DNA of 27,201 nt. Origin: Anaerolineae bacterium (GTDB taxonomy: Bacteria; Chloroflexota; Anaerolineae; B4-G1; SLSP01). Positions 705 through 24,757 of the stretch are shown one piece after another. Position 1 is the first letter of the stretch. The number at the start of each line of letters is the position of its first letter. Made by a program: the position numbers and the translations under genes. A model generated the notes under the pieces. The model was given only the letters and a program-made list of their open reading frames with translations, was not told the origin of the DNA and did not search any database. Location: assembly GCA_021107605.1 (NCBI GenBank), contig JAIOSN010000031.1, positions 1 through 27,201 of the forward strand, written 5' to 3'.

Positions 705-718
705 CTTGATTGCCTTTA

Positions 719-1981
719 TCAACCAGCTGGTTTGTCAGCTACGTATTTTTTCCACTCAACTAACGGCACGTAGATGCCGCGAGCGGCCCCACTCCCCACC
801 GCGTACACAGTGAAGGGCGCGGATTGTCCAGAAGCCATCACCACACTATCACTTGGATCAGTGATTCTGACGATTACCCGATACACTCCAGAGGTAAGTT
901 GCAGCGGTTGATATCGGACGGCTATTATGCCCTTCCCGCAGAGCTCGCAGAGGCCTAACTCGTCAGCGGCAGCTTGGCTGGAATCCGCAGTGTTGCAAAG
1001 GGTGCCATCTTCTTCACGGATTATGCGTGCATCTACTCGTCCAATCGGCTGTGCCGAAGCTGTCTGATAGTGGATCTTGACCGTATTTGGTAGAGAGCTA
1101 GCTAACCCGACTCGCTCAGTTTTGACGCTAGCGGGAACCACCTCGATTTTGGTCAAGATCAACCCCCCTTGCGAATCCAGCAGAGAGGGAGTAGCTCCAC
1201 TGCCACCCTGTTCAGTCGACGGGGACGGTGGCTCCAATAATAATTCCTCATATTTTGAAATGACGGCATCCACTCTACCGCGAGTAACAACTTCACCTTT
1301 TACTAGCAGTAAGGCGGTATCACACATATTGCGCAACAAGTGCATATTATGGGAGACGAAGACCAACGTTGTGCCAGCACGTCGTAATTCACGCATGCGC
1401 TGGACGCACCGGTGTCGAAAGCCAGCGTCTCCCACGGCTAACACCTCATCGACCAAGAGGATTTCTGGTTCCACGTGAGCTGCTACCGCGAAGGCCAGCC
1501 GCACATACATCCCGGAAGAATAACGTTTAACCGGCGTATCAATAAACCTCTCTAATTCAGAGAAGGCGATAATAGCATCCAATTTATGCTTGATCTCTTG
1601 TTGCTTCAGTCCTAAGATAGCGCCATTAAGATAGATATTTTCGCGCCCGGTCAATTCTGGATGGAACCCGGCTCCCAGTTCAATCAATGAGGAGAAGCGT
1701 CCATTGAGGATGACGCGCCCAGAGGTCGGACGAGTGATATTGGATAGTATCCGCAGCGTGGTTGTCTTTCCCGCTCCATTGGGGCCGATCAGACCCAACG
1801 CTCCGCCCGGCTCAACCTTGAAACTAACTTTATTCAAAGCCCAAAGGATACGTGAAGAATCGGTCTCTTCCTGCTTTCGCGATAACCAAGTGGACAAGGC
1901 TCCCCGCAGAGTGCCTAGAGTACCAATGCGATAACGTTTTGAGATATTATCAAAGATGATGGTACCAGTTTCAGTATTCAT
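719..1981 (-). CDS. wzt: Polysaccharide ABC transporter ATP-binding protein Wzt with C-terminal Wzt_C-like domain (420 aa)
   Basis: Walker A GPNGAGKTT, ELGAGFHPELTGRENI, signature YSSGM, Walker B ILLVDE, H-loop VSH, plus an ~170-aa beta-rich extension. True start is probably ATG 1981 (MNTETG), which overlaps the TGA at 1978-1980 (ATGA), not 2107. Confidence 0.93.
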   Translation of the reverse strand: MNTETGTIIFDNISKRYRIGTLGTLRGALSTWLSRKQEETDSSRILWALNKVSFKVEPGGALGLIGPNGAGKTTTLRILSNITRPTSGRVILNGRFSSLIELGAGFHPELTGRENIYLNGAILGLKQQEIKHKLDAIIAFSELERFIDTPVKRYSSGMYVRLAFAVAAHVEPEILLVDEVLAVGDAGFRHRCVQRMRELRRAGTTLVFVSHNMHLLRNMCDTALLLVKGEVVTRGRVDAVISKYEELLLEPPSPSTEQGGSGATPSLLDSQGGLILTKIEVVPASVKTERVGLASSLPNTVKIHYQTASAQPIGRVDARIIREEDGTLCNTADSSQAAADELGLCELCGKGIIAVRYQPLQLTSGVYRVIVRITDPSDSVVMASGQSAPFTVYAVGSGAARGIYVPLVEWKKYVADKPAG

Positions 1982-2756
1982 ATTAAATCCGCGAAGGTGG
2001 GTTCGGCCCATTTGAAAAATATATAGCTGCCCAGCAGTAAAACCAACGATACGCCAGCACTCACCATACCGCCGGCCAGCGGGGTGGCTGACCGGGGAGT
2101 AATACACGTCGATAACCGTCCATAAGACTCCCCATCGGGTTCAAAAAATAATAGAAATGGAACCTGGGGGGGACCAGGTCTACCGGATATGTGATTGGAG
2201 TGGCGTACATCCAAACTTGGGTCAGCAGCGGTACCACAAACCGCATATCGCGGAAAAAGATAATTACCACGGCTCCGGTCAAAGTGACGGCGATGGTTAG
2301 GGTAATCTGGATTAACAAAAGTGGAATGATCCAGAGCGCATATTGAGTGGGCCAGAGACGATACCAAATCAACATCCCGCCAAGAACTAACGAAGCTGCC
2401 ACGAGATCCAAAAAAGCAGCCCCCACGCTGGCTAAGGGCAGCACCTCACGCGGGAAATAGATTTTAGTGACGAGATTCATATTATTGATCAAACTAGGAA
2501 TCCCAAACCCGAGTGACGTAGCAAAGAACGTCCACGGAGCCAAAGCCACATAAACAAAAATAGGATATGGAATATCGGCAGTATCAACGGCTAAAAATTT
2601 TGAGAAGACAATACTGAAGATCGCTGTGAAGGCCAATGGCTGCAAAATAGCCCACGCTACTCCTAACAGTGATTGTTTATAGCGTACTCGTATCTCACGC
2701 AGAGTCCATAGCCAGAGTAAATCGCTATATTGATACAATTCGACTAGCTGTCTCAT
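1978..2756 (-). CDS. wzm: Polysaccharide ABC transporter permease Wzm, frameshifted near 2065-2080
   Basis: REIRVRYKQSLLGVAWAILQP, LVTKIYFPRE, FFRD, ATPITYP and LNPM are Wzm hallmarks. The frame stops at 2061, but the typical last helix and tail (SLVLLLGSYIFFKWAEPTFADLI*) continue in another frame to 1978. Confidence 0.9.
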
Positions 2757-2766
2757 AGAATTCCTT

Positions 2767-4269
2767 TCATTGTTTTCTTAACGTGAAGACCCAGATTGCA
2801 GTCACCACGCTGGCGAGCAATAGTGAGGTTGTCCCTACGCCAATGAGAAACCCCCTGTTGATAGTGTTCGGCGGCGGCGGAGCGATATCGGCGAACACCT
2901 CTCTTGTTGGTGAACTGGGTTCCATCCCCGGCGTGGGGAGCGAGAGAGTTTCAGAAATTATTTCTTCAGTCCCGGTCAGAGGAGGAGAGAGGGACACAAG
3001 CGGGGCTACCGAAAGAACTGTACCTCGCAGATACCAAATCTCAGCTCCTCCCAGATGGGTATAAACCACGTGCAACTCATTGCCTAATCTGACGGCGGCG
3101 GCTGTATAGTGCGCGCTGGAAGCGGCGGGACTGAAGTCATCCAGCGGTTTGACTGGCAACAGATTATCGCCTAGCCAACGAGTGTAGTAGATTCCCACCT
3201 TTTGCTCCGCACGAGTACGCATGTTCACCAGCAAATGCCTTTGACCGGTCGCGTCCACCAACGGAACAATGTACCCATTGATGCCCTCCATGGTGGTTAG
3301 GATATCTTGAGCCGCGCCCCATGTTTCTCCTCCATCGGTGGAGACGCGATGGGCGCGTCCAACATTTGAGCCATTGACGTAGATGAGATGGATTTCGGAG
3401 TCCCCCATGGCGGTTATGTAGGGCCAACCCACAAATGTATCTGTTGGATCCCGGTACTCAAATTGCCCAGGTGCTTCCCACGTCTCCCCGCCATCTACGC
3501 TGCGAGTGTAGTAGATGGCTTGTCCATACCCTTGTTCCTGATTAGTCTGCCATACCACGTGCAGACGATCAGCCCCATCAGTGATGAGTTGGACTTTGGA
3601 AAGGCTATTTTCAAGATGGTCAAAAGAACGTGATAATTTAGTCTCCATCTTCCAGCTCTGCCCCTCATCTTGAGAGCAAATATGATAAATCCCGGCCGCA
3701 GCGCCTCGCGTAGCGTAGACAATATGCAAATTACCGTCCCCCGCAGCTACAATATCAGATTCCTGAGCAGAACGGGCGCTATTATTGGCTACAATGAGAG
3801 GGGTGCTCCAAGCATGAGCAGATACAGCCTGCTGCGATAAAGCATTACTGTAATAGAAATTGGATTGTCCGGTCCATACCAGATGCAGCCGGTTAGCAGC
3901 ATCCAGAGCTACGGCCACGCCGGCCGCAATCGCCTCTGCAGGGACAAATAAAATGTCCAGGGGTGAAGTCCAAGACACCCCATCCCAGCGCGTATAATAA
4001 ATACTGTTGCCGGTGCTCAATGCACTCCCGTCTCGTGATCGGACTGGCCCCCCACCTACTTCTTCGCTCCAGAAAACATGCACATACCCATAATCATCCG
4101 TTATAATTGCTGGATGCCCAGAACTGGCAGGCGTGTTGGATATGTTGAGCGGCGCAGTCCAGATAATAGGGCCGGCTTGCGCCTCTACCGGGGCAACTCC
4201 CGGCCCACAGCATACAGAGAGATTGAGGAGTAGCAAAGCAAGCTGAACCCAACTAGGTTTCCAGGTCAT
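2767..4269 (-). CDS. Secreted, C-terminally membrane-anchored Asp-box (BNR) beta-propeller protein, 500 aa
   Basis: Signal peptide (VEA|Q), Asp-boxes SQDEGQSW, SVDGGETW and STDGGETW, Pro/Thr/Ser-rich stalk, C-terminal TM helix ending in RKQ. Confidence 0.8.
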   Translation of the reverse strand: MTWKPSWVQLALLLLNLSVCCGPGVAPVEAQAGPIIWTAPLNISNTPASSGHPAIITDDYGYVHVFWSEEVGGGPVRSRDGSALSTGNSIYYTRWDGVSWTSPLDILFVPAEAIAAGVAVALDAANRLHLVWTGQSNFYYSNALSQQAVSAHAWSTPLIVANNSARSAQESDIVAAGDGNLHIVYATRGAAAGIYHICSQDEGQSWKMETKLSRSFDHLENSLSKVQLITDGADRLHVVWQTNQEQGYGQAIYYTRSVDGGETWEAPGQFEYRDPTDTFVGWPYITAMGDSEIHLIYVNGSNVGRAHRVSTDGGETWGAAQDILTTMEGINGYIVPLVDATGQRHLLVNMRTRAEQKVGIYYTRWLGDNLLPVKPLDDFSPAASSAHYTAAAVRLGNELHVVYTHLGGAEIWYLRGTVLSVAPLVSLSPPLTGTEEIISETLSLPTPGMEPSSPTREVFADIAPPPPNTINRGFLIGVGTTSLLLASVVTAIWVFTLRKQ

Positions 4270-4272
4270 TTT

Positions 4273-5388
4273 TTAACCAAAGAGATAACGGAAATATGGC
4301 CGGAGCGCTTCTTGATTCCGAATAAATTTCATGAATAGTAGCGGTACACCCAATCCGACTATGAACATCAGCGGAAAGAAAAGTAGGACTTGATGAGCTA
4401 GCATTCCTGGTATAATCTGCCGGACAACACGAGCGAAAAGTTCCATCACCGTGATATGCAACAAGTAAATACCATATGATTGCCGTCCCCATTGCTGTAC
4501 ATTGCGCGAGAACCAGGTCTCTGTGAGAGGAGCAAACCCGAGGAAGTAACAGATAAAAGCCAATGAGTATAGAGCCGGCGCCAACGTGGTGGGATTAAAA
4601 CGATAGTCTTTTCCGGTTGTCCGGTAGATAACTTCCGGTTCGATGACAGTTAACACTGCCAATACCAGCAACGCTATGAAGAGCCATCTTTTATGCTCTT
4701 CAATCCAAAGCTTGAATTCGCTGCTATGCAGGCCCACCACTATCCCCCACGGGAAATAAAAGGTTGACCAAATTAAACTCCAGGGCCACAAGGCTGTAAG
4801 CCAAGTTATGCCAGGAATATCCACGTTGAGTAATCCTAGATAGTGTATGGACATTGCCCCGATATGCAGGCAAGCAGAGCCAATTAGTAATATCGCTGGT
4901 TTACGTTTGGCCAGCGGAATCAGAAAAGGTGTCAAGAGATAAAATTGACAAAGCACCGGCACATAAAAGTAAGGCCCCACGGCTTGTCCTAATAAGATTT
5001 GTTTGATATAGCCGGCGGGTGAAGAAAAGACACCTTCAAACGCTTGCCCAATGAAGATGATCAGAGACCAGATAAAATATGGAATGAGTAAATTTTTTAG
5101 GCGCTTGCCTACCATCTTCCAGGTAAATGTGGCATGAGAGCCACGCGCGGCGTAAGCCACGAAGAAACCCGAGATAAAAAGAAAGGCGGGGACGGCGTAG
5201 ACTACTAATTGGCGGAGAACTAGAAGAACGTAATATGAGGGCGTGCCAATCTGATCGAAATTGGGGACACTCACCGGTTGGTAACGATCAGCCCACAGGA
5301 ACATAGCGATCTGCCCCCAACCAGCGGCATGGCCAACTATTACGCTCAGGATAGCTACTCCCATTAGCAAGAATAGACGTTTAGTCAT
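4273..5388 (-). CDS. Acyltransferase family 3 (AT3) integral membrane acyltransferase
   Basis: GVAILSVIVGH at the N-terminus, YAVPAFLFISGF, RLKNLLIPYFIWS, YFYVPVLCQFYLL, SYGIYLLH; about 10 hydrophobic segments. Confidence 0.88.
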   Translation of the reverse strand: MTKRLFLLMGVAILSVIVGHAAGWGQIAMFLWADRYQPVSVPNFDQIGTPSYYVLLVLRQLVVYAVPAFLFISGFFVAYAARGSHATFTWKMVGKRLKNLLIPYFIWSLIIFIGQAFEGVFSSPAGYIKQILLGQAVGPYFYVPVLCQFYLLTPFLIPLAKRKPAILLIGSACLHIGAMSIHYLGLLNVDIPGITWLTALWPWSLIWSTFYFPWGIVVGLHSSEFKLWIEEHKRWLFIALLVLAVLTVIEPEVIYRTTGKDYRFNPTTLAPALYSLAFICYFLGFAPLTETWFSRNVQQWGRQSYGIYLLHITVMELFARVVRQIIPGMLAHQVLLFFPLMFIVGLGVPLLFMKFIRNQEALRPYFRYLFG

Positions 5389-5406
5389 CAGCTTCTCCTC
5401 GTTTGA

Positions 5407-6288
5407 CTATTCGCTGAATGATTCGTCGCGATACCGCTCAATGGCCTCAATGCTGAACTCTACAAAGATTGGCCCGATCTCCTTATTGGCCAGACGATTA
5501 GGATGTGAGTCTTTGCCCTCTCGATAATTTTGGCGCAACATATTGAAATCAAGTGCTGTGGGATCGTCTTCAGCTAAGTATCCAAAAAGATCAAAGGTAA
5601 CTATGTTGGGATGCCCGTCTAAATACTCGGTTGATTTCAACCACTCGGCAAATGTCCTGACTCTGGTTGCTGCTGCCACATCCGTCCCGGCTGGATTTAG
5701 CGGAGGCGGCGTCACGATAATAAACAGTTTATCGCGGTGCTCATCCATCACGTTACGTAATTCCAAGTAGTCGCTCTGATAATGCTTAAGCTGTTCATTG
5801 CTGGTGATATTGCTAACAGGGAAACAGGATTTGAAAGCTATCACCTCGTGCTGCATCAATCCGCTGAAGGCATTTAGCGGTAACGTGTGTAATTTTTGAG
5901 CAAAGATTTGAGCGAATCCTGAAGGGTTAGTATTATCGTTGGGGATATTATAGCTATACCCGCGTTGTTGTCCATCTGGGCCACGTAATTCATGCCAGTT
6001 GTAGCCATGATCCCAAAAATCGTAGCCCTCGGTTGTGAATGCTGTCCGGACCTCTCCAGCCTCAATCAAATTATGTCCGACTGAATGATGGAGAAAAACA
6101 ATGTTAGTGTAGTCCCCGTGGTTATCTTGCGAAACCGCTGGGTGATCAAGTACGGCTTGGATCACGTCCAAAATGCGCCACAAACCCAATCCGCGGCCCC
6201 TTAACAGGAGCAAACCTAAGCCTGTCAGCAGCACACTCCCAATGATGAACCGAAGTTGCCGTCTGGAGATTTTATAATTCATCTGCAT
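5407..6288 (-). CDS. Membrane-anchored or exported hypothetical protein, probable SGNH-like hydrolase/transacylase fold
   Basis: N-terminal SRRQ plus hydrophobic helix; IVFLHHSVG resembles the block I FxGDS serine motif; C-terminal DSHPN has an Asp-x-His pair. The fold call is inferred from motifs only. Confidence 0.55.
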   Translation of the reverse strand: MQMNYKISRRQLRFIIGSVLLTGLGLLLLRGRGLGLWRILDVIQAVLDHPAVSQDNHGDYTNIVFLHHSVGHNLIEAGEVRTAFTTEGYDFWDHGYNWHELRGPDGQQRGYSYNIPNDNTNPSGFAQIFAQKLHTLPLNAFSGLMQHEVIAFKSCFPVSNITSNEQLKHYQSDYLELRNVMDEHRDKLFIIVTPPPLNPAGTDVAAATRVRTFAEWLKSTEYLDGHPNIVTFDLFGYLAEDDPTALDFNMLRQNYREGKDSHPNRLANKEIGPIFVEFSIEAIERYRDESFSE

Positions 6289-6289
6289 C

Positions 6290-7282
6290 TCAAAGTTTTT
6301 TCTCTCTGGTCACGTTGATAGGGGTAGCTCTTTGGTATGCGGTTGTCTGTTGTTTGCGACGAATATCTGCAATGACACGGGTAACTTGCTCTACTGAGAG
6401 CTTCAACGTCTGAGCTATTACATGGTCAGAAATACCTTGCTCGTACCCTTGCCAAATTGTATCTAAAATATCGAAAGGTACTCGAAAGAAAAACTCTTCT
6501 TGAGTGCTCGCGGCACTGTAAGTATCCGTAGTTGGAACTCGCTCCCGGATTTCCTCCGGCACCCCCAGATACTCCGCTAGTTGAAAAACTTGCGTCTTGA
6601 ATAGATGGACAATAGGACTGACATCCACGCCGCCATCCCCGTGTTTCACGAAAAAACCCAAATCATGCTCGTTCTTATTGGCGGTGCCCACAACTGCGTA
6701 GTTACGCAGCTCCGCATGATAGTAAAGCATAGTCATACGGGTACGTTGTTTAAAATTAGAAGCGGCGACAATTTGATAGTATTCTGAGGAAGATAACCGT
6801 TCTTCAAATCTTTCACCAGCTGGATTGAGTACCACAACTTTGAAAAAATTAAGGGTATTTTCTTCCAATAAGTTGCCCGGCAAAACGATTTTGGCTTTCC
6901 ACTTAGAATTATATTGGGGGAAGACTCGTTGGATGGCTACGTCTCGTCGCCGGTAACAACCTAACCTTTCTAGGGCCGCGGTGATATCTTCTGTCACAGT
7001 ATCAATTCCATAATACGTGGCTACCTGATGCGCCAGTGTTGTGCTATCAGGACTGGATTCTTTCTCCGGTAGCAATATCCCTACTACTCGCTGCGGCCCA
7101 AAAACACGCGCGCAAAGAGCCAAGACAACGGAGGAATCAAGTCCGCCACTGATACCGACGATGGCTCCCTGGCGACGCAATTTATGATATACGCTCTCTT
7201 CAAGTAACTCTGTGATCTGGCTGGTTTCTTTAGCAGCGTCAAATTGACCGAGCCAAGATACCTGCTTTCTACTATCTTTCAT
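6290..7282 (-). CDS. nadE: NH3-dependent NAD+ synthetase-like amidoligase (NadE paralogue with insertion)
   Basis: PP-loop ISGGLDSS, SNFKQRTRM, VGTANKNE, GFFVKHGDGG, LFKTQV. No nitrilase domain. An ~50-aa insertion precedes SNFKQR, and the C-terminal PTTDTYS...QEEFFF segment is atypical. Confidence 0.85.
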   Translation of the reverse strand: MKDSRKQVSWLGQFDAAKETSQITELLEESVYHKLRRQGAIVGISGGLDSSVVLALCARVFGPQRVVGILLPEKESSPDSTTLAHQVATYYGIDTVTEDITAALERLGCYRRRDVAIQRVFPQYNSKWKAKIVLPGNLLEENTLNFFKVVVLNPAGERFEERLSSSEYYQIVAASNFKQRTRMTMLYYHAELRNYAVVGTANKNEHDLGFFVKHGDGGVDVSPIVHLFKTQVFQLAEYLGVPEEIRERVPTTDTYSAASTQEEFFFRVPFDILDTIWQGYEQGISDHVIAQTLKLSVEQVTRVIADIRRKQQTTAYQRATPINVTREKKL

Positions 7283-7315
7283 AATGTTCCCTATGTCCCC
7301 TTTGGCAAATGTTAT

Positions 7316-8230
7316 CTATAGTAGCTGCCCTTTATTCTGAGCTAGTATGACCCGGATGTTTCCTTGTTGGTCGCGGACAGTTTCTAGTTGGGTGAAGTGA
7401 TTATTTCTGGATACCTTGCGGGCGATAAATTCCCCTTGCCCCAAGCCCACTTCGAAACATAACCAGGAACCGGGTTTCAAAAATCGCGGAGACTCACTCA
7501 ACAAACGCAGCAAGATTGAAAGACCAAAGGGGCCTCCATCGAAGGCCAACGTTGGCTCGTAGTCACCAATCTCGGCGGGCAATTCCTTGATTTTGGCAGA
7601 AGGAATATACGGCGGATTACAGGTTATGAGATCAACTCGGCCCCAGAATTCCTCGGTATCAAATGGGACAAATAAATTCCCCACCCGGAACTTAACTTGA
7701 CTTGTCAACTTCAGATATTCGGCGTTTTGTTGCGCCAGGTGAATCGCTTCTGCAGCGAGGTCTGCACCGAAAATCTTGCACCGTGGGCCCAGATTAGCTA
7801 GAGCTAGCCCGATATTGCCACTGCCGGTACAAAGATCGATGATGTTAAGTACACCGCACTCTGTTGCTAAACTGTATGCCTTCTCCAAAGCCGCCATCCC
7901 TAACAGTTCGGTCTCTTTGCGTGGAATCAAGGCGGCTGGAGTAGACAACATCTCAATTCCCATAAAAGATTGCCGCCCGGTTATATGCGCCAATGGCGTC
8001 CCCTTTAACCGTTCAGCGATCAGTGCGTACAGGTGCGTCAACTCTTTCTCTCCCAAGTGGGGAAGTTCTTGTAATTCCAGAGATTGTGCAACAGCCTTAG
8101 GTTGGCCGGTCACATAAAACCAGAGAGCATACAGAGTTGCTTCTGGCGTCTCCAATGGTTTATCGGCTAGTCCAGACCAGCTAGTCGATAGGCGGGCCGC
8201 TAATTGTCGGAATAACGCTAGCTGGTTCAT
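7316..8230 (-). CDS. PrmC/HemK-like SAM-dependent N-methyltransferase (304 aa)
   Basis: PLAHITG, LIPRKETE, DLCTGSG, NPPY, FDGG and FEVG motifs. Start is probably ATG 8230 with a GGAG SD. The N-terminal domain (DKPLETPEATLYALW) is unlike housekeeping PrmC as I know it. Confidence 0.85.
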   Translation of the reverse strand: MNQLALFRQLAARLSTSWSGLADKPLETPEATLYALWFYVTGQPKAVAQSLELQELPHLGEKELTHLYALIAERLKGTPLAHITGRQSFMGIEMLSTPAALIPRKETELLGMAALEKAYSLATECGVLNIIDLCTGSGNIGLALANLGPRCKIFGADLAAEAIHLAQQNAEYLKLTSQVKFRVGNLFVPFDTEEFWGRVDLITCNPPYIPSAKIKELPAEIGDYEPTLAFDGGPFGLSILLRLLSESPRFLKPGSWLCFEVGLGQGEFIARKVSRNNHFTQLETVRDQQGNIRVILAQNKGQLL

Positions 8231-8243
8231 CAATATCTCCAAT

Positions 8244-10211
8244 TCACGGCGGCGGAAGGCGGTCAACTAATTTGGTCAACGGTTTAGATAGAGCGGGACT
8301 CGCGGGTTGAAAGTTATCCACGAACAAATGGTGGAGCAACTGTGCTGACAGGATTCCCACCAGCGCCATCTCATCCATCTCTCCTAACCGCGCGCGCAAT
8401 TGAGATTTACGCCTTAAACGTTCTACTGCCGCAGGGTCGAACAAGCCTGCAACGCGCAAGGCCTCAGGTGACAATAGTTCTGCCACATAATCGGGTGTGA
8501 CCTGATCAAAGAAACTCCTCTGGATAGGAGCGCGATAGGGATGTTTAGTGCGCTGCCAAATCTCGGCAGGCACTAAGCGGCGCCCTAATTGCTTGAGCAG
8601 CCATTTTTCTTTGAGACCACGTAATTTCATCCTGGAGGGCAGCCGATTGCAGAATTCCACCACGCGATGATCGAGGAAGGGGAAACGCCCTTCTACCGAG
8701 TGCGCCATGGCCATCCGGTCGCCTTGAGACGAGAGCAAATACTGCGGTAAGAAAATCTTCATCTCCAGATACTCTGCTTGCGCTAGAGGCGACCAGCCGG
8801 CAAATGGGACTGGCAAAGGGAATGGAGTATGTTGCTCAGAGATAGTTATTTGTTCCCCGTCTACCAGAAAACGTTGAAGCCGTGAGGTGTTAGTCCACCG
8901 CAATATGTGAGAATAGCTGGTTGCATCTGTTGCCATCAGACCTTGCTTGAAGAATGCTTGCAGATAAGGCGACATCTGGTCCCGCAAACCGGGGATGTAA
9001 GGGTAAAGCCGGCGTAACAAGAGTGGGCGCAGTGCTGAATCTGGCTCGCGCGCCCAGAAGCGCCGTACCTTCATCTCTTTGAAGATATTATAACCGGCCA
9101 GGATTTCATCCGCGCCCTCACCGGTCAACACGACTTTCAGGTCATGTTGGTGTACCAAATTTGAGAGTAGAAACATAGGAGCCGGAGAAGCCCGCAACAC
9201 GGGGATTTCCGTATGCCAGATGACCTGGGGAAAAACCCGAGCAATATCTTTATAGTTGCAGTAAACTATCCGATGATCCGTCTTCAGAAATGCGGCCATC
9301 TGGTGCTGGTATTTGCTTTCGTCAAACTCAGCGTCCTCGAAAGCGATGGAGAAGGTATCCAACTGGTTGTGGGTGTAATTGCGGATGATGGCTGTGGTAA
9401 TAGCTGAATCTAAGCCCCCACTCAGATAAGCACCCACTGGAACGTCGGCTCGCAGGCGGATACGAGTGGCGTCAATCAATAGCTCTTCAAATTCTGCCAG
9501 GTATTCTTTTTCTGGACGTGATACGTGCGGCTCAGTGTAGTCCAACGACCAATAGGGAGTAATGGTATAGTCGCCCTGCCGAGCTAGTAGATAGTGCGCC
9601 GGCGGAAGCTCTCGGATATCGTTGAAGATGGTCCGCGGCGAAAGCGTGCTCCAGTAGGTGAAAATCTGTGCCAGAGACAACCTGTCAATGGAAGCTTTGA
9701 TTGCTGGATGTGCTAACAGCGCTTTGATTTCCGAACCGAAGATCAATTTACCCTTATTGACAGTGTAGAATAGCGGACGAATACCCAGGCGATCACGGGC
9801 CAGGAAGAGAGTTTGTCTGCGTGTATCCCAGATAGCCAGAGCAAATTGACCGTTCAAATCTTCCAGGCAAGCGACACCGCGCTCCTCATATAGATGAAGT
9901 ATGACCTCGGTATCTGTGTGCGTCGAAAAGCGATGCCCCCGCGCCTCTAACTGGGGTCGCAATTCCACATAATTGTAGATTTCGCCATTGAAGACGATCC
10001 AGAGCGAACCATCTTCATTGCTAATCGGTTGTTGCCCGCTGCTTAAGTCAATAATGCTCAAGCGGGCACTGCCCAGACCAACCTTCTCATCTCGATAGAG
10101 ACCAAACTCATCCGGGCCACGATGCCGGAGCATCGCTAGCATTTGGAGCAGCACCTCTTTCTCCACTGGTGGTTGCTCTCTCAGATTTAAGACACCGGTT
10201 ATACCACACAT
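8244..10211 (-). CDS. asnB: Asparagine synthase (glutamine-hydrolysing) family amidotransferase
   Basis: N-terminal MCGI (Ntn Cys), HRGPD, FNGEIYN, DTEV, ARDRLG, LSGGLDS, GEGADE, SVEGRFPFLD. Confidence 0.95.
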   Translation of the reverse strand: MCGITGVLNLREQPPVEKEVLLQMLAMLRHRGPDEFGLYRDEKVGLGSARLSIIDLSSGQQPISNEDGSLWIVFNGEIYNYVELRPQLEARGHRFSTHTDTEVILHLYEERGVACLEDLNGQFALAIWDTRRQTLFLARDRLGIRPLFYTVNKGKLIFGSEIKALLAHPAIKASIDRLSLAQIFTYWSTLSPRTIFNDIRELPPAHYLLARQGDYTITPYWSLDYTEPHVSRPEKEYLAEFEELLIDATRIRLRADVPVGAYLSGGLDSAITTAIIRNYTHNQLDTFSIAFEDAEFDESKYQHQMAAFLKTDHRIVYCNYKDIARVFPQVIWHTEIPVLRASPAPMFLLSNLVHQHDLKVVLTGEGADEILAGYNIFKEMKVRRFWAREPDSALRPLLLRRLYPYIPGLRDQMSPYLQAFFKQGLMATDATSYSHILRWTNTSRLQRFLVDGEQITISEQHTPFPLPVPFAGWSPLAQAEYLEMKIFLPQYLLSSQGDRMAMAHSVEGRFPFLDHRVVEFCNRLPSRMKLRGLKEKWLLKQLGRRLVPAEIWQRTKHPYRAPIQRSFFDQVTPDYVAELLSPEALRVAGLFDPAAVERLRRKSQLRARLGEMDEMALVGILSAQLLHHLFVDNFQPASPALSKPLTKLVDRLPPP

Positions 10212-10223
10212 TAAGAGCCGCCC

Positions 10224-11750
10224 TTACGCTAAACCCGTCTTTTTGATCTTGCCTGAAGAAGTCTGCGGCAAGGCATCCCGAAAAACCACATATTTGGGAA
10301 TCATGAAATCCTCCAGATGCGCACGGCAATAAGCCAATATCCGCGCGGTGCTCAGGCCTGTACCTTCAACTACTAGAAAGGCCTTGATAGCTTCCCCTAA
10401 AATTGGATCCGGCACTCCGATAACCGCGACTGCCTGTACCCCCGGCAACCCGTAGAGCACGTTTTCCACTTCTTTGGGAGCTATTTTTTCACCCCGGCTC
10501 TTGATCATATCATCCTTGCGCGAGACGAAATAGAAGAAACCTTCTTCGTCCATGCGGAAGAGATCATCCGTGTAACAGACCCGCTCCCCGGGAATTGGGG
10601 CAGGGCGGTAACGCTTCTTCGTCGCGGCTGGATTCCCCCAGTAGCCGCGCATCACATGCCGCCCGCGCACGACTAACTCCCCCACTTCTCCTGGCCCTAG
10701 CCGGCGCCCGGCGTCATCTTCAATCCATACTTCTGTGTCTGGCATGGCGATACCTACGGAGCCAGGACGTGTATCCAGTTGCTCTGGCGGGAGGCAGAGG
10801 GTCCGTTTGGTCTCGGTCAACCCGTACATGGAGTAAAGGGTAGCTCCGGGGAACTCTTCTCGCAGTTGTTGGATGTGACTAGGGGGCAACGCTGCGGCTG
10901 TATTGGTCAGGTAACGGAGATTGGAGAGATCGTATTGACTGAGATCCATTTTCACCAGGAGGGTAAACAAGGTAGGCACACCCGGAAAACCTGTGACCTT
11001 TTCCGTTACCATTTGTTTTAGAATGGCGGCTGGATAGTTGAACCCTTTTTCCAAGACCAATGTCCCTCCAAAACGAAAGACCATCAGGAGCTGATAGAGT
11101 CCATAATCAAATGAGAGCGGCAGCACGTTGATGATAATATCAGCTGCCACGTTCTCCAAATAGGAAATCACAGAATCAGCAACGAAGACTACATTGCTAT
11201 GATCCTCCATAACGCCTTTAGGTTCACCGGTGCTGCCAGAAGTGTAAACCAGGCAAGCTAAGTCAAGATCGATATTGACTTTGACCGGTCGCTCGTCAGG
11301 GTAATTCTCCTGGATGTTTTTCCAGGAATGGAATGGAGCGACGAGCTTGTTGACGGTGTTCGCAGTAAACACCAACGCTTTTAACGACGCCACTTCCGGT
11401 AATAGCTGTTCCGCCAGCACGACTCTGCGTCCGGAGGTGATCAGGGCGCTCGCCTGGCAGTTGTTCAAAATATAGACCAACTTCTGATATTTAGTTGAGT
11501 AGTTGACGACAACGAAAACCCCGCCTGCCTTCAGAGCAGCGAAAATTCCAATGACCAATTCGACGCTGTTGGGCAAATAGAGCACAATCCGTTCGCCGCG
11601 CGCTAGTCCTTGCTCTTTGAGGGCATTGGCTAGCCGGTTAGCTTGGGACTCAATTTGAGCGTAGGTTAGGCGCTGTCCACCAGAGATCAACCCAATTTTA
11701 TCAGGTACACAATCCGCTTGTTGCTCTAGAAATTCTTGAACTAGCGTCAT
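10224..11750 (-). CDS. Stand-alone adenylate-forming (ANL) enzyme, probably loading the adjacent carrier protein
   Basis: YTSGSTGEPKG, LSFDYG, YGLTE, RKDDMIKSRG, and C-terminal PQTSSGKIKK. GGAGG SD. Confidence 0.92.
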   Translation of the reverse strand: MTLVQEFLEQQADCVPDKIGLISGGQRLTYAQIESQANRLANALKEQGLARGERIVLYLPNSVELVIGIFAALKAGGVFVVVNYSTKYQKLVYILNNCQASALITSGRRVVLAEQLLPEVASLKALVFTANTVNKLVAPFHSWKNIQENYPDERPVKVNIDLDLACLVYTSGSTGEPKGVMEDHSNVVFVADSVISYLENVAADIIINVLPLSFDYGLYQLLMVFRFGGTLVLEKGFNYPAAILKQMVTEKVTGFPGVPTLFTLLVKMDLSQYDLSNLRYLTNTAAALPPSHIQQLREEFPGATLYSMYGLTETKRTLCLPPEQLDTRPGSVGIAMPDTEVWIEDDAGRRLGPGEVGELVVRGRHVMRGYWGNPAATKKRYRPAPIPGERVCYTDDLFRMDEEGFFYFVSRKDDMIKSRGEKIAPKEVENVLYGLPGVQAVAVIGVPDPILGEAIKAFLVVEGTGLSTARILAYCRAHLEDFMIPKYVVFRDALPQTSSGKIKKTGLA

Positions 11751-11799
11751 CGACTCTTCCTCCAGTTAAAATGCCTGGTCGGGCTTGAGGTAACTAATC

Positions 11800-12048
11800 T
11801 TAAGCCGTTTTCTTCCGGATGTAGCCGGCAAGTTGCATAACTGAATCGAAATTATCAGGTGTCAGATCTTGATCTTCAACCTCAAGGTTAAAATTCTCTT
11901 CAACAAACGTGACTAGATCCATGATTCCCATGGAATCAACAATACCCTCTTCCAAGAATGAAGTGGCATCTGCATAAGGATAGCCCTTTCTACTAAAGAG
12001 AAGGTTTTCAGCAATATACTCACGAATTTTTTTCTCCACCGTTTGCAT
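11800..12048 (-). CDS. Acyl/aminoacyl carrier protein (DltC/ACP-like, 82 aa)
   Basis: Small and acidic, with GIVDSMGIMDLV phosphopantetheine-serine motif and NFDS near the C-terminus. AGGAG SD. Confidence 0.92.
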   Translation of the reverse strand: MQTVEKKIREYIAENLLFSRKGYPYADATSFLEEGIVDSMGIMDLVTFVEENFNLEVEDQDLTPDNFDSVMQLAGYIRKKTA

Positions 12049-12214
12049 GTTTTTTCTCCTAGTTTACTATTGACTCCGCTGAAAAAAGATGGTTCATCAT
12101 AAGGACGCTAAGAAAAAAATAAATTTTGGCGCGAACTTATTTAATCGGGTCTGTCAAAAAGTCAATTTTCTTCAGAGAGTGGAGTTAAATATCTTTATCC
12201 TCAAAATTGTTTTT

Positions 12215-12361
12215 GTAAACGTTCAGACTCTGCGGTTTTGACGGTAATTTGACCTGGGCAGTGCGCTGCTAGGTATCATCAGAACCTGCCACAGGAGTAC
12301 CAGCTGATAAACCTCGGAGATCTGGGGGGGGGTGTTTTTCCTTACCCCCCTGAACGCTTAC
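12215..12361. mobile_element. 147-bp MITE-like element
   Basis: Terminal inverted repeats GTAAACGTTCAG (12215-12226) and CTGAACGCTTAC (12350-12361), 11/12 match. Flanks TTGTTTTT and TTATTTTT (7/8) could be a target duplication. No ORF inside. Confidence 0.55.
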
Positions 12362-12372
12362 TTATTTTTTTT

Positions 12373-12400
12373 CTCCGTGTCCTCTGTGTCTCGGTGGTGA
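12373..12400. repeat. 9-bp-period short repeat (CTCCGTGTC CTCTGTGTC TCGGTGGTGA)
   Basis: Directly visible, 10 bp past the stop of the 913-aa gene. Confidence 0.6.
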
Positions 12401-12409
12401 GATATTTTT

Positions 12410-15151: not shown

Positions 15152-15246
15152 TGTTTTCCTCTATGGCTCCAAGAGCGCGCGTTTCTGTTTCTGCAATTAG
15201 CTGGCGCAGATGAGTATTTTGTGGATCCAAAATTAACAGCGAACTT

Positions 15247-18152: not shown

Positions 18153-18187
18153 ATTATTTCTTCCTTACTCAATCAGGTTAATGATGA

Positions 18188-18931
18188 TTAAAAAAATACT
18201 TCCCGACTACGTGGATGGGGAACTTTTTGCTCCGTGATGGAACGCAGCACTTTGGCCGGAACGCCTCCCACCACGGTATGCGCGGGGACGGCATGAGTCA
18301 CTACCGCGCCAGCAGCCACGACTGACCCGCGACCTACGCGCACACCGTCAGTAATGATCGCCCCTGATCCAATCCAGACATCATCCTCAATCACAATCCC
18401 CTCGGCAGTAAGTCCTTGTTCCACAAATGAACGGGTAGGGTCTTCAAAGACGTGATTTACGGCGATGATCTGGACAAAGGGAGAGGTGTAAACGCGGTCT
18501 CCTAAGGTTACTCCGCCTTGTCCCCGGATCACTGTATATTCTCCAATCAGGCTATCTGCTCCTATCTGGATACCGGCATGAGGTAGGTCACGGAAATTAT
18601 AAACGTGGAGTACCGCACCGTGCATGATCAGCGTCCCGGCTCCGATCACTATTCCTTGTGGGCAAGCGTGGAGATAGACGCCTTCGTCCAGGTAGGAGCC
18701 AGCCCCTAACTTGATGTGATTAGCAAAACGCAGCCGTACACCTGACTCAATGGCGGCTACCCCCTCCATCTGTAACATCAAACGGTAGCTTACAGCCCGC
18801 AGGCCGATACCAATGAGGGTGGGAATCCAGCCGGCAAGGACTTGTAACCCTTGCTCCAAAATATACCGGGGGAGGTTATCTGCTTGCCGGCGCAAGTATA
18901 ACCGAGGTCCGCCATTAATACGAGTAGTCAT
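18188..18931 (-). CDS. Hexapeptide-repeat (left-handed beta helix) acyltransferase
   Basis: Repeated IGxG/LGxG/VGxG hexapeptides, [23 protein letters not shown]. Confidence 0.9.
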
Positions 18932-24692: not shown

Positions 24693-24704
24693 AATCACCA
24701 CCAG

Positions 24705-24757
24705 TTGACATTTGATACATCACGAATAGTATAGAGACGATGACCAAATTGTTAGAA
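24705..24757. promoter_or_regulatory. Overlapping divergent promoters
   Basis: Plus strand: TTGACA (24705-24710)-16 bp-TAGTAT (24727-24732). Minus strand: TTCTAA-18 bp-TATACT (24728-24733). Confidence 0.5.

What the first reader, a model, noticed from the sequence alone, without database searches (positions are those of the whole stretch)
4273..12048. Candidate undescribed system: Dlt-like carrier-protein pathway installing an amidated/N-methylated acyl group on a surface glycan
Seen: seven tightly packed, co-oriented genes (carrier, adenylation enzyme, AsnB, PrmC-like, NadE-like, SGNH-like, AT3) just upstream of wzm/wzt. Established: DltA/DltC/DltB/DltD use an adenylation enzyme, a carrier, a membrane acyltransferase and an extracellular SGNH-like protein to aminoacylate teichoic acid; AsnB-family enzymes amidate polysaccharide uronic acids; PrmC methylates amide nitrogen. 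Inference: an amino or dicarboxylic acid is loaded on the carrier, amidated by AsnB and/or the NadE paralogue, N-methylated, then moved across the membrane by AT3 (replacing the MBOAT) and placed on the glycan by the SGNH-like protein. I know of no characterised pathway with this combination. Related ligase/carrier/AsnB trios do occur in exosortase-linked EPS loci.
Basis: partly seen in the sequence, partly recalled or inferred. Interest (0 to 1): 0.82.

Follow-up and report, generated by a model that had tools for sequence, protein, structure and literature searches.

The report
Carrier-protein amide cassette for surface glycan
Seven adjacent genes in an uncultured Anaerolineae bacterium combine a widespread, uncharacterised four-gene "carrier-protein amidation" module (whose "NAD synthase" is not the cell's NAD enzyme) with a dedicated methyltransferase and a membrane acyltransferase/SGNH pair; together they probably put an amidated, possibly N-methylated aspartate-like group on an exported surface sugar polymer.

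Summary
The seven genes are real, intact, co-oriented and tightly packed (gaps -23 to 49 nt), and all seven family calls hold.

**Four-gene core.** ACP, ligase, AsnB and the NadE-like enzyme form a module that recurs in more than 580 species of many phyla, mostly in polysaccharide loci. It equals the S. meliloti pSymB operon asnB-SMb20651-SMb20650-nadE. This scan has met the module several times on other DNA.

**Not housekeeping.**
- Related genomes carry a canonical NadE elsewhere.
- The MAG has a second PrmC with a proper PrmC_N domain.
- Module-linked PrmC-likes from five phyla form their own clade.

**Substrate.** The ligase has an invariant VinN-like pocket (Asp235 plus Lys-Arg), which points to an aspartate-type amino-dicarboxylate.

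**Delivery pair.** The 293-aa protein is a membrane-anchored SGNH fold (Z 13 to the OatA C-domain). It sits directly next to an AT3 in 21 of 80 related loci. This pair also occurs without the module. An ACP-AT3 complex prediction gives only weak support.

**Verdict.** On-carrier amidation is likely and amide N-methylation is plausible. Export through AT3/SGNH is unproven. The role of NadE-like versus AsnB is unknown. I class it as a new variant of carrier-protein-dependent envelope decoration.

The parts
11800..12048 (-). Dedicated acyl/aminoacyl carrier protein (82 aa), phosphopantetheine site Ser39 in the DSM motif
   Evidence: PF00550 23.6 bits. Below the cut-offs of all named ACP/DltC models. 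Ser39 and Asp38 are invariant in 13 orthologues. 35.5% identical to the S. meliloti SMb20651-type ACP.
10224..11750 (-). Stand-alone adenylating ligase, type 1, predicted to load an aspartate-like amino-dicarboxylate on the ACP
   Evidence: AMP-binding plus AMP-binding_C. TIGR03098 474.5 bits, below the cut-off of 592. Best PDB matches are the LgrA A-domain (307 bits) and VinN 3wvn (230 bits). The pocket code D-Y-Y-T-T-T-M plus K-R is invariant in 48 orthologues, including S. meliloti. VinN uses D230, F231, S299, K330 and R331.
8244..10211 (-). AsnB-family glutamine amidotransferase (655 aa), intact Cys2 glutaminase and PP-loop
   Evidence: GATase_7 166.8 bits, Asn_synthase 316.8 bits. TIGR03108 467 bits, below the cut-off of 817. 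51.4% identical to pSymB asnB. Next to NadE-like in 59 of 80 loci.
7316..8266 (-). HemK/PrmC-family SAM-dependent N-methyltransferase paralogue (NPPY). Alternative ATG start at 8230.
   Evidence: TIGR03534 205.1 bits against a cut-off of 199.1, but PrmC_N only 20.4 bits against 23.4. Second PrmC in the MAG at C173 with PrmC_N 70.6 bits. Separate clade, SH-aLRT 99. In 7 of 80 module loci of other phyla.
6290..7282 (-). NadE-like PP-loop ATP-pyrophosphatase paralogue (PRK00876 type, about 40-aa insertion at residues 99-138), no glutaminase domain
   Evidence: NF002048 436 bits. The match to PF02540 and to PH0182 is split by the insertion. ACP and ligase adjacent in 67 of 80 loci each. Canonical NadE elsewhere in relatives.
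5407..6288 (-). Membrane-anchored extracytoplasmic SGNH-fold protein (293 aa). Invariant Ser69 (HHSxG), Asn198, Asp260-Ser-His262.
   Evidence: AF2 pLDDT 84. VIA-align top 50 are all SGNH/GDSL, with the OatA C-domain at Z 13.3. Foldseek E 1e-4. Invariant columns. 416 species genomes hold a relative.
4273..5388 (-). AT3-family integral membrane acyltransferase (371 aa), TM1 His20 conserved
   Evidence: PF01757 107.6 bits. Directly adjacent (131-267 nt) to the SGNH-like gene in 21 of 80 related loci. Directly after NadE-like in 5 Chloroflexota loci. Weak-support ACP docking on its cytoplasmic face.
719..2756 (-). Wzm (2061-2756) and Wzt (719-2107) ABC exporter of the glycan; context, not part of the cassette
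   Evidence: ABC2_membrane and ABC_tran; galactan/teichoic-acid exporter models. Co-located in L009, L011, L031, L041 and L074.
18188..18931 (-). Left-handed beta-helix (hexapeptide) acyltransferase: alternative, cytoplasmic acceptor-side transferase for the carrier-bound group
   Evidence: Hexapep 59.8 bits. A related 165-aa LbH gene sits directly before the ACP in 8 Ignavibacteria module loci.

Best explanation
The region is a composite glycan-decoration cassette made of three units.

**Unit 1: a widespread four-gene carrier-protein amidation module.**
- The ligase adenylates an aspartate-like amino-dicarboxylic acid. It probably does so in the VinN manner, through the side-chain carboxyl, with the amino group held by Asp235 and the free carboxylate by Lys-Arg. 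It then thioesterifies the acid to Ser39-phosphopantetheine of the ACP.
- AsnB uses glutamine and ATP to turn the remaining free carboxylate into a carboxamide.
- The NadE-like PP-loop enzyme performs a second ATP-dependent activation. Its substrate is unknown: a second carboxylate on the acceptor, or the amide itself.

**Unit 2: a dedicated HemK-family methyltransferase.** This enzyme class methylates planar amide or amino nitrogens. It probably N-methylates the new carboxamide.

**Unit 3: a split AT3 plus membrane-anchored SGNH pair.** It is built like OatA/OafA and transfers an acyl group across the membrane to the glycan exported by Wzm/Wzt. In this lineage the acyl group is probably the carrier-bound one.

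**Shown:** gene content, recurrence, paralogue status, pocket residues and folds. In a homologue, ligase-dependent acylation of the ACP is also shown.

**Inferred:** substrate identity, order of steps, the methylation target, and the hand-over from ACP to AT3.
For: **The module is real and widespread**
- Of the 80 best loci (from more than 584 species genomes with a NadE-like relative), 67 have the ACP, 67 the ligase and 59 AsnB adjacent.
- Their neighbours are Wzc-type kinase, priming sugar transferase, Wza, GT4, DegT and a PPTase.
- The S. meliloti pSymB operon has the same four genes, at 51.7%, 51.4%, 45.3% and 35.5% identity. There the ligase gives acylated ACP in E. coli and cannot replace FadD (PMC7232532).

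**The two suspect genes are paralogues**
- A canonical NadE lies elsewhere in 4 of 5 module-bearing genomes and in all 3 same-family genomes.
- The MAG holds a second PrmC.
- Five other module genomes each have a higher-scoring PrmC elsewhere.
- The 11 locus-linked PrmC-likes form one clade, SH-aLRT 99.

**Substrate**
- The code D-Y-Y-T-T/S-T-M plus K-R is invariant in 48 type-1 ligases. VinN uses D230, F231, S299, K330 and R331 for 3-methylaspartate/aspartate.

**PrmC-like link**
- It is adjacent to the module in 9 loci of 5 phyla, always with a type-1 ligase.
- Geothrix and an acidobacterial MAG carry ACP-ligase-AsnB-NadE-SGNH-like-PrmC-like.

**SGNH/AT3**
- Folds; adjacency.
- Module association is clustered on the SGNH tree: 12 changes against 24.6 in shuffles. 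The window sits in a subclade with 17 of 22 module-linked rows.
- ACP against AT3+SGNH: score 0.58, best of 3 controls 0.02, verdict 'weak support'. The mark was reached by 58 of 80 solved complexes and 2 of 110 mismatched pairs. Scores of 0.60 or under came from only 7 of those 80 solved complexes and from both mismatches that passed.
- In that model the ACP residues 38-44 around Ser39 touch Lys/Arg-rich AT3 loops and termini.
Against: - The AT3/SGNH pair is separable from the module. Among 34 loci with at least 8 kb on both sides, AT3 occurs 5 times with and 5 times without the module, and 22 SGNH loci have no module nearby.
- The module lacks AT3 or SGNH in most other phyla (7 of 80 each). 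There an LbH or another transferase sits beside the ACP.
- No AT3 is known to take a carrier-protein donor (my knowledge).
- The complex score is in the range that is more often wrong than right.
- A thioester-bound aspartate has only one free carboxylate, so two amide-forming enzymes are not explained.
- PrmC-like is absent from about 90% of module loci. In G260 it lies on a different contig from the module.
- The SGNH-like protein has D-x-H rather than the usual D-x-x-H.
- No biochemical datum exists for any of these proteins except ACP loading in S. meliloti.
Confidence: 0.5

Rival explanations
1. There are two independent decoration units that merely share a glycan locus. In the cytoplasm, a soluble acyltransferase such as the LbH enzyme at 18188-18931 transfers the module's amidated acyl group to an amino sugar or lipid-linked intermediate. 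The AT3 plus SGNH pair is an ordinary split OatA/OafA-type O-acetyltransferase fed by acetyl-CoA.
For: - AT3/SGNH pairs occur without the module, for example in Anaerolinea thermophila L060 and Longilinea arvoryzae L071.
- The module occurs without AT3/SGNH in most phyla.
- LbH genes sit directly before the ACP in 8 Ignavibacteria loci. LbH enzymes such as LpxA and LpxD are known acyl-ACP users (established knowledge).
- Wzm/Wzt pathways finish the polymer in the cytoplasm, so cytoplasmic decoration is natural.
Against: - AT3 directly follows NadE-like in 5 Chloroflexota loci, and SGNH-like genes directly follow it in Acidobacteriota and a cyanobacterium.
- The SGNH subclade of the window is almost wholly module-linked.
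- There is weak-support ACP-AT3 docking with Ser39 at the interface.
Confidence: 0.33
2. The module's product is not a glycan substituent at all. It is a free small molecule or a lipid head group, and the glycan context is incidental.
For: - In S. meliloti the four genes stand alone on pSymB between sugar-transport, aldo/keto-reductase and min genes, with no glycan genes.
- The ACP's best named model is an ornithine-lipid ACP, though far below cut-off at 48.9 against 130 bits.
Against: - In the window and in most surveyed loci, the neighbours are glycan synthesis and export genes.
- Conserved synteny with Wzm/Wzt, GT2 and BNR proteins in Anaerolineae.
Confidence: 0.12
3. NadE-like and PrmC-like are the cell's housekeeping NAD synthetase and release-factor methyltransferase, placed here by chance.
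For: - Both pass curated NCBIfam cut-offs: NF002048 at 436 against 313 bits, TIGR03534 at 205.1 against 199.1 bits.
- No other NadE was found in this 73%-complete MAG.
Against: - The MAG has a second PrmC with a strong PrmC_N domain.
- Same-family genomes use a canonical 264-587-aa NadE and lack the NadE-like type.
- 4 of 5 module genomes have both NadE types.
- NadE-like is adjacent to the ACP and ligase in 67 of 80 loci across phyla.
- The PrmC-like clade is distinct from housekeeping PrmC.
Confidence: 0.03

Closest known systems
Sinorhizobium meliloti pSymB operon asnB - SMb20651 (ACP) - SMb20650 (ligase) - nadE
   Same: The same four families are adjacent. The ligase is 51.7% identical, AsnB 51.4%, NadE-like 45.3% and ACP 35.5%, and the ligase pocket code is the same. 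Ligase-dependent acylation of the ACP was shown there (PMC7232532, citing Ramos-Vega 2009).
   Different: The S. meliloti operon has no methyltransferase, AT3, SGNH or glycan genes nearby. Its acyl group and product are unknown.
Dlt D-alanylation system (DltA, DltC, DltB, DltD)
   Same: The logic matches: a stand-alone adenylating enzyme, a small carrier protein, a polytopic membrane acyltransferase, and a membrane-anchored extracytoplasmic SGNH-like protein that acts on a surface polymer.
   Different: - The ACP scores 23 bits against the DltC cut-off of 68.
- The membrane protein is AT3, not MBOAT. No MBOAT was found in the MAG.
- The 293-aa protein has no DltD family hit.
- The substrate pocket is aspartate-like, not D-alanine-like.
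- Three on-carrier tailoring enzymes have no Dlt counterpart.
VinN-VinL (vicenistatin) and related beta-amino-acid starter-unit pathways
   Same: A stand-alone A-domain enzyme with Asp235, a bulky residue at 236, Ser/Thr at 301 and Lys-Arg in the beta13-beta14 loop loads an aspartate-type acid on a discrete ACP, followed by on-carrier tailoring.
   Different: VinN's product is decarboxylated by a PLP enzyme and feeds a polyketide synthase. Here there is no decarboxylase or PKS. The tailoring enzymes are amidotransferases and a methyltransferase, and the context is a glycan.
OatA / OafA / PatA-PatB type AT3 or MBOAT plus SGNH O-acyltransferases
   Same: An AT3 membrane domain sits next to an extracytoplasmic SGNH domain. 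The structural match to the OatA C-domain is Z 13.3, to PatB 10.9 and to the OafA/B SGNH domain 9.7.
   Different: The two domains are separate genes. The block I motif is HHSxG rather than GDS, and block V is D-x-H. The known enzymes use acetyl-CoA, not a carrier protein.
XrtA/PEP-CTERM (exosortase A) associated accessory set (TIGR03098 ligase, ACP, TIGR03108 amidotransferase)
   Same: These are the best-scoring named families for the ligase and a strong one for AsnB. The context is an EPS locus.
   Different: Both scores are below the family cut-offs (474.5 against 592; 467 against 817). No exosortase was found in the MAG. No PLP decarboxylase or hydrolase pair is present.
PrmC/HemK release-factor N5-glutamine methyltransferase
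   Same: NPPY and SAM motifs are present. It is 98 bits to E. coli HemK and marginally passes TIGR03534.
   Different: The N-terminal domain is divergent (PrmC_N below cut-off). It is a second copy in the genome and forms a separate clade that travels with the module. A non-release-factor substrate is inferred.

Membership tests
Dlt system | DltC-type D-alanyl carrier protein | tested here: not met
   NF003464 23.2 bits against a cut-off of 68; TIGR01688 17.4 bits against 52.35.
Dlt system | DltB MBOAT membrane protein | tested here: not met
   The membrane protein is PF01757 AT3. No PF03062 match in the 73%-complete MAG.
Dlt system | DltD-family extracytoplasmic protein | tested here: not met
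   No Pfam or NCBIfam hit at all for the 293-aa protein. The fold is SGNH-like, as DltD's is, but DltD is not among the top 50 matches.
Dlt system | D-alanine-specific DltA | tested here: not met
   DltA is not among the best 25 of 107 NCBIfam hits; the best is TIGR03098. The pocket has a Lys-Arg pair typical of acidic substrates.
Four-gene ACP/ligase/AsnB/NadE-like module (S. meliloti pSymB type) | All four families adjacent and co-oriented | tested here: met
   compare L209 and 59-67 of 80 loci.
Four-gene ACP/ligase/AsnB/NadE-like module (S. meliloti pSymB type) | Type-1 ligase pocket D-Y-Y-T-T/S-T-M plus K-R | tested here: met
   The window reads DYYTTTM-TKRT. S. meliloti reads DYYTSTM-CKRC. 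Invariant in 48 loci.
Four-gene ACP/ligase/AsnB/NadE-like module (S. meliloti pSymB type) | NadE-like of the PRK00876 type with an internal insertion, additional to a canonical NadE | tested here: inconclusive
   Type and insertion are met. A canonical NadE was found in relatives but not in this incomplete MAG.
Four-gene ACP/ligase/AsnB/NadE-like module (S. meliloti pSymB type) | Ligase loads the ACP | not testable with these tools
   Shown only for SMb20650/SMb20651 (PMC7232532).
AT3-SGNH O-acyltransferases (OatA/OafA type) | AT3 membrane domain with a conserved TM1 histidine | tested here: met
   PF01757 107.6 bits. His20 present in at least 90% of 13 orthologues.
AT3-SGNH O-acyltransferases (OatA/OafA type) | Extracytoplasmic SGNH domain with a Ser-His(-Asp) triad | tested here: inconclusive
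   Fold met (Z 13.3 to OatA-C). Ser69, His262 and Asp260 are invariant, but the spacing is D-x-H and block I is HHSxG.
AT3-SGNH O-acyltransferases (OatA/OafA type) | Both domains in one polypeptide; acetyl-CoA donor | tested here: not met
   They are separate genes 18 nt apart. The donor is not testable here.
XrtA/PEP-CTERM associated accessory set | TIGR03098 ligase and TIGR03108 amidotransferase above cut-off; exosortase in the genome | tested here: not met
   474.5 bits against 592.35; 467 bits against 816.9. No PF09721 match in the MAG (73% complete).
PrmC (release factor N5-glutamine methyltransferase) | Catalytic NPPY and SAM motifs; TIGR03534 above cut-off | tested here: met
   205.1 bits against 199.1. 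NPPY at 217-220.
PrmC (release factor N5-glutamine methyltransferase) | PrmC_N release-factor-binding domain; orthology with housekeeping PrmC | tested here: not met
   PrmC_N scores 20.4 bits against 23.4 here, but 70.6 bits in the MAG's other copy. Separate clade, SH-aLRT 99.
NH3-dependent NAD+ synthetase (NadE) | PP-loop and NAD_synthase domain | tested here: met
   PF02540 181 bits. SGGLDS at 45-50.
NH3-dependent NAD+ synthetase (NadE) | Acts on NaAD as the cell's NAD synthetase | not testable with these tools
   Context argues against it. I did not examine the NaAD-binding residues.

The most novel reading that the evidence does not exclude
This would be a complete trans-membrane aminoacylation route analogous to Dlt but built from unrelated parts. 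An N-methyl-(iso)asparaginyl-type group is assembled on a dedicated carrier protein. It is then handed to an AT3 acyltransferase, which would be the first AT3 shown to use a carrier-protein donor. A split SGNH transferase finally places it on an ABC-exported glycan. The HemK-family enzyme would be the first of its kind to methylate a non-protein, carrier-bound amide. The NadE-like enzyme would have a new chemistry, a second activation such as amide to amidine or nitrile.
Probability: 0.2. Interest if true: 0.85.

Novelty: new variant of a known kind. Interest (0 to 1): 0.62.

Why it matters
- **Annotation.** More than 580 species carry a gene that annotation pipelines name "NAD(+) synthase", and a smaller set carry a "PrmC". 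By context and phylogeny these serve a carrier-protein pathway in surface-polysaccharide loci. Metabolic reconstructions that count them as NAD or translation genes are wrong.
- **Unknown chemistry.** The module's product is unknown, although the module is among the more widespread uncharacterised glycan-tailoring cassettes.
- **What this window adds.** It shows the most complete version seen here: loading, amidation, a dedicated N-methyltransferase and a candidate export and transfer pair. It therefore gives a concrete, testable pathway.
- **Cultured carriers.** Geothrix limicola Red804, Mesorhizobium robiniae DSM 100022, S. meliloti and Marinilabilia salmonicolor all carry a version in which it can be tested.
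- **If the AT3 step holds,** the known donor range of AT3 acyltransferases would widen from CoA thioesters to carrier proteins.

Tried and rejected
- **Promoter and terminator scan** of 1-16000. Counts were near chance (19 promoter-like against 18.3 expected) and nothing informative lay inside the cassette.
- **The search for related loci with the single PrmC-like protein.** It found only 3 weak relatives. The class-wide search and the NadE-seeded loci were needed instead.
- **Literature searches** for the gene combination gave nothing specific. The S. meliloti lead came from earlier scan notes, and I checked it.
- **Housekeeping reading** of NadE-like and PrmC-like. Rejected.
- **Membership in Dlt or in the exosortase-A accessory set.** Rejected on cut-offs and missing parts.
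- **DUF362 protein and alternative QueC-like PP-loop protein.** These accompany the cassette in relatives but are absent from the window.
- **Not examined:** NaAD-binding residues of the NadE-like protein; aspartate-binding residues of AsnB. No ligase-ACP or NadE-ACP complex prediction was made, because the single job went to ACP against AT3+SGNH.
- **Unpublished genome.** The 400-genome class tally includes G351.

Full report
**1. Observation**

The window is read almost wholly on the minus strand. The seven ORFs of the finding lie where stated.

| Coordinates | Product | Evidence |
|---|---|---|
| 11800-12048 | ACP, 82 aa | PP-binding |
| 10224-11750 | Ligase | AMP-binding plus AMP-binding_C |
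| 8244-10211 | AsnB | GATase_7 plus Asn_synthase |
| 7316-8266 | HemK/PrmC-like methyltransferase | |
| 6290-7282 | NadE-like | NAD_synthase, matched in two stretches |
| 5407-6288 | 293 aa | no family hit |
| 4273-5388 | AT3 | Acyl_transf_3 |

The catalytic motifs are all intact:
- ACP: DSM with Ser39.
- Ligase: A3 and A10 motifs.
- AsnB: Cys2 and SGGLDS.
- Methyltransferase: DLCTGSG and NPPY.
- NadE-like: SGGLDS.

Gaps between the genes are 49, 12, -23, 33, 1 and 18 nt. A 500-aa BNR/Asp-box gene lies between the AT3 and wzm/wzt, so "just upstream" needs that small correction.

Further upstream are a 913-aa BNR protein, an HpnJ-like B12 radical-SAM enzyme, a GT2 and a hexapeptide acyltransferase.

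The window is contig C131 of a 2.09-Mb MAG in 356 contigs, 73% complete. By its relatives it belongs to the Anaerolineae.

**2. The 293-aa protein is a membrane-anchored SGNH-fold protein that pairs with AT3**

It has more than 900 homologues, all unnamed. Relatives occur in 416 species genomes, mostly Chloroflexota.

An AlphaFold model from 22 sequences has mean pLDDT 84. It shows an N-terminal helix (residues 9-29) followed by an alpha/beta domain.
- Foldseek against the PDB puts GDSL/SGNH acylhydrolases first (E about 1e-4).
- The Foldseek-independent search gives only SGNH/GDSL proteins in its top 50. These include the OatA C-terminal O-acetyltransferase domain (Z 13.3), PatB (10.9), Ape1 (11.6) and the periplasmic SGNH domain of a Salmonella LPS acetyltransferase (9.7).

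Invariant residues sit where SGNH blocks I, III and V lie: Ser69 in HHSxG, Asn198, and Asp260-Ser-His262. The Asp-His spacing is one residue shorter than usual.

In 80 species loci seeded with this protein, an AT3 gene is present in 26. In 21 of those it is directly adjacent, 131-267 nt away.

**3. The core is a widespread four-gene module**

Neighbourhoods of three homologues already showed ACP-ligase-AsnB next to the SGNH-like gene. They also showed AT3 and Wzm/Wzt nearby.

I then seeded from the other side with an alignment of NadE-like proteins. More than 584 species genomes have a relative, in Cyanobacteria, Ignavibacteria, Acidobacteriota, Bacteroidota, Actinomycetes, Planctomycetota and Proteobacteria. 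In the best 80 loci, an ACP is adjacent in 67, a ligase in 67 and an AsnB in 59.

The other recurrent neighbours are polysaccharide genes:
- Wzc-type GNVR/AAA kinase (17 loci)
- Priming sugar transferase (11 loci)
- Wza-type exporter (9 loci)
- GT4, DegT aminotransferase and an Sfp-type PPTase

The same four genes form an operon on S. meliloti pSymB, annotated asnB, acyl carrier protein, acyl-CoA ligase and nadE. Identities to the window proteins are 51.4%, 35.5%, 51.6-51.7% and 45.3% respectively.

A 2020 paper summarises earlier work on that operon. SMb20650 is cotranscribed with ACP SMb20651, its co-expression gives acylated SMb20651 in E. coli, and it cannot replace FadD (PMC7232532).

Earlier notes of this scan had met the module repeatedly on other DNA and supplied this lead. 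I checked it myself.

**4. NadE-like and PrmC-like are not the housekeeping enzymes**

*NadE.*
- Four of five module-bearing genomes also have a canonical NadE. It gives a single full-length match of 249-270 bits in ORFs of 275-434 aa. The fifth has a fragment.
- The three same-family genomes (92-95% complete) each have a canonical NadE and no NadE-like gene.
- In the window's own MAG only the NadE-like copy was found. With 27% of the genome missing, that is not evidence that it is the sole copy.

*PrmC.*
- The MAG has a second copy at a contig end (C173). It scores 168 bits over the first 151 model positions and has a strong PrmC_N domain (70.6 bits). The window copy's PrmC_N scores 20.4 bits, below the cut-off of 23.4.
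- In 400 Anaerolineae genomes, nearly all have one PrmC at 30-41% identity to the window protein. Only G260 (48% identity, 295 bits, plus its own second copy) and G030 (39%, 165 bits) stand out.
- Five genomes of other phyla that carry a module-linked PrmC-like gene each have a higher-scoring PrmC elsewhere.
- In a tree, the 11 locus-linked proteins form one clade (SH-aLRT 99, stem length 1.22). The 33 housekeeping copies fall outside it. The window's nearest relatives come from a Chitinophagaceae MAG and an Ignavibacterium MAG. The grouping was partly chosen by similarity, which I note as a caveat.

**5. How far the add-ons belong to the module**

*PrmC-like* lies beside the module in the following loci:
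- The window.
- L074 (Anaerolineaceae), with the order ACP-ligase-AsnB-PrmC-NadE-DUF362-AT3-SGNH-Wzm-Wzt.
- Seven of the 80 NadE-seeded loci: Ignavibacterium, Geothrix limicola, an acidobacterial MAG, Rhodocyclaceae, Nitrosomonadales, Mesorhizobium robiniae and Chitinophagaceae.

In Geothrix and the acidobacterial MAG the order is ACP-ligase-AsnB-NadE-SGNH-like-PrmC-like. That is the window's gene set without the AT3.

In G260 the PrmC-like gene sits among glycosyltransferases on one contig, while a module variant with the SGNH-like gene is on another. G030 likewise has both on different contigs.

PrmC-like is therefore a rare accessory, in about 10% of module loci, but a recurrent one.

*SGNH-like and AT3.*
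- Distant SGNH-like relatives (the FLHHSTG family and a related FGHxSVG family) accompany the module in about 14 of 80 loci of several phyla.
- AT3 directly follows NadE-like in five Chloroflexota loci.
- On a tree of 81 SGNH-like proteins, module linkage is clustered: 12 changes against 24.6 in shuffles. The window sits in a subclade with 17 of 22 rows module-linked. Another clade of 21 rows has no module-linked member. Relatives share labels, so this shows stable association, not function.
- Against coupling: among 34 loci with full flanks, AT3 occurs five times with and five times without the module.

**6. Substrate**

The ligase's best solved relatives are NRPS adenylation domains: LgrA at 307 bits and VinN at 230 bits. 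Fatty-acyl ligases score lower.

I mapped the specificity positions through the HMMER alignment to LgrA and a MAFFT alignment of 80 ligases. This gives two types.

| | Type 1 | Type 2 |
|---|---|---|
| Members | window, S. meliloti, 48 loci | about 30 loci |
| Identity to window | 40-70% | 27-38% |
| Pocket code | D235, Y236, Y239, T278, T/S299, T301, M322, then Lys-Arg in the beta13-beta14 loop | Cys or Ile at 235; keeps the Arg |
| Conservation | essentially invariant | |

VinN recognises 3-methylaspartate and aspartate with D230, F231, S299, K330 and R331. The Asp holds the amino group, and Lys-Arg hold the free carboxylate (PMC11253843).

The likeness argues for an aspartate-type amino-dicarboxylate for type 1. 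For type 2 it suggests, more loosely, a dicarboxylate without the amino group.

All nine PrmC-like-linked loci have type-1 ligases.

**7. Mechanism**

*Shown:* the parts, their recurrence, and ACP loading in a homologue.

*Inferred:*
- The ligase loads the acid.
- AsnB amidates the one free carboxylate.
- The HemK-family enzyme, a class that methylates planar amide or amino nitrogens, methylates that amide.
- The group leaves the carrier for the glycan.

The role of the NadE-like enzyme remains unexplained. A thioester-bound aspartate offers only one carboxylate. Three observations bear on this:
- In 12 Anaerolineae loci the NadE-like gene is replaced by a different PP-loop protein with weak QueC likeness.
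- In some phyla the NadE-like gene is duplicated.
- In some loci it stands without AsnB.

A second adenylation, either of an acceptor carboxylate or of the amide oxygen, is the best guess.

For the hand-over, I used the one complex prediction on ACP against AT3 plus SGNH.
- The verdict was weak support: score 0.58, best of three controls 0.02.
- The mark was reached by 58 of 80 solved complexes and 2 of 110 mismatches. Scores of 0.60 or under came from only 7 of those 80 and from both mismatches that passed.
- The ACP contacts only the AT3, through residues 38-44 around Ser39. It sits on Lys/Arg-rich loops and on both termini. By the positive-inside rule that is the cytoplasmic face.
- An acidic ACP could dock there unspecifically.

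**8. Comparison and verdict**

The cassette works like Dlt in outline but fails each Dlt membership test. It also falls below the cut-offs of the exosortase-A accessory families, and no exosortase was found in the MAG.

It is a member of the uncharacterised S. meliloti-type four-gene module, extended here by a dedicated methyltransferase and a split OatA-like AT3/SGNH pair.

I found no characterised pathway with this combination. The core, however, is neither new to the literature nor to this scan.

I rate it a new variant of carrier-protein-dependent envelope decoration.
- Loading and amidation are likely.
- Methylation of the amide is plausible.
- AT3/SGNH delivery is possible, and I put its odds somewhat above those of two independent units.

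Noticed in passing
window 15247-18931 and loci L020, L028, L033, L040, L046, L054, L055, L074, L132: The HpnJ-like B12 radical-SAM gene and the membrane GT2 (and sometimes the hexapeptide acyltransferase) travel with the carrier-protein cassette in many Anaerolineae loci. Identities are 52-71% for the rSAM and 55-62% for the GT2, so they may belong to the same glycan pathway.
   Followed up: partly
window 12410-15151 and 2767-4269; L009, L031, L041: Two BNR/Asp-box proteins (913 and 500 aa) bracket the cassette. The same bracket (BNR913 - cassette - BNR500 - Wzm - Wzt) recurs in at least three other Anaerolineae loci. Their role is unknown.
   Followed up: partly
L009:9004-9999, L007:4917-5939, L210:8408-9337 and 9 more loci: In 12 of 80 SGNH-seeded loci, the NadE-like gene is replaced at the same position after AsnB by a 331-340-aa PP-loop protein with only weak QueC/DUF7411 likeness. 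This is a non-orthologous replacement and suggests the PP-loop step is essential to the module.
   Followed up: partly
L074:7570-8847 and 16 other loci; absent from the window: A 425-447-aa DUF362 protein usually sits just before the AT3 gene in related loci but is missing here.
   Followed up: no
ligases of about 30 loci, e.g. L011, L020, L037, L132, L183: A second ligase type (27-38% identical) serves the same module but lacks the amino-group-binding Asp235 (Cys or Ile instead) while keeping the pocket Arg. This suggests a different, non-amino acid substrate in those lineages.
   Followed up: partly
window 24045-25738: A divergently transcribed pair lies upstream of the glycan locus: an FHA plus OmpR-type DNA-binding regulator (minus strand) and a Ser/Thr protein kinase (plus strand). 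They are possible regulators of the locus.
   Followed up: no
window 14787-14806 and 14841-14860: A 20-nt stem-loop-like sequence is repeated exactly, 54 nt apart, inside the 913-aa BNR gene. It is probably just a repeated coding unit.
   Followed up: no
L141 (Geothrix limicola Red804), L206 (Mesorhizobium robiniae DSM 100022), L183 (Marinilabilia salmonicolor): Cultured isolates carry the module. Two of them, Geothrix and Mesorhizobium, also carry the PrmC-like gene. They are ready experimental systems.
   Followed up: no
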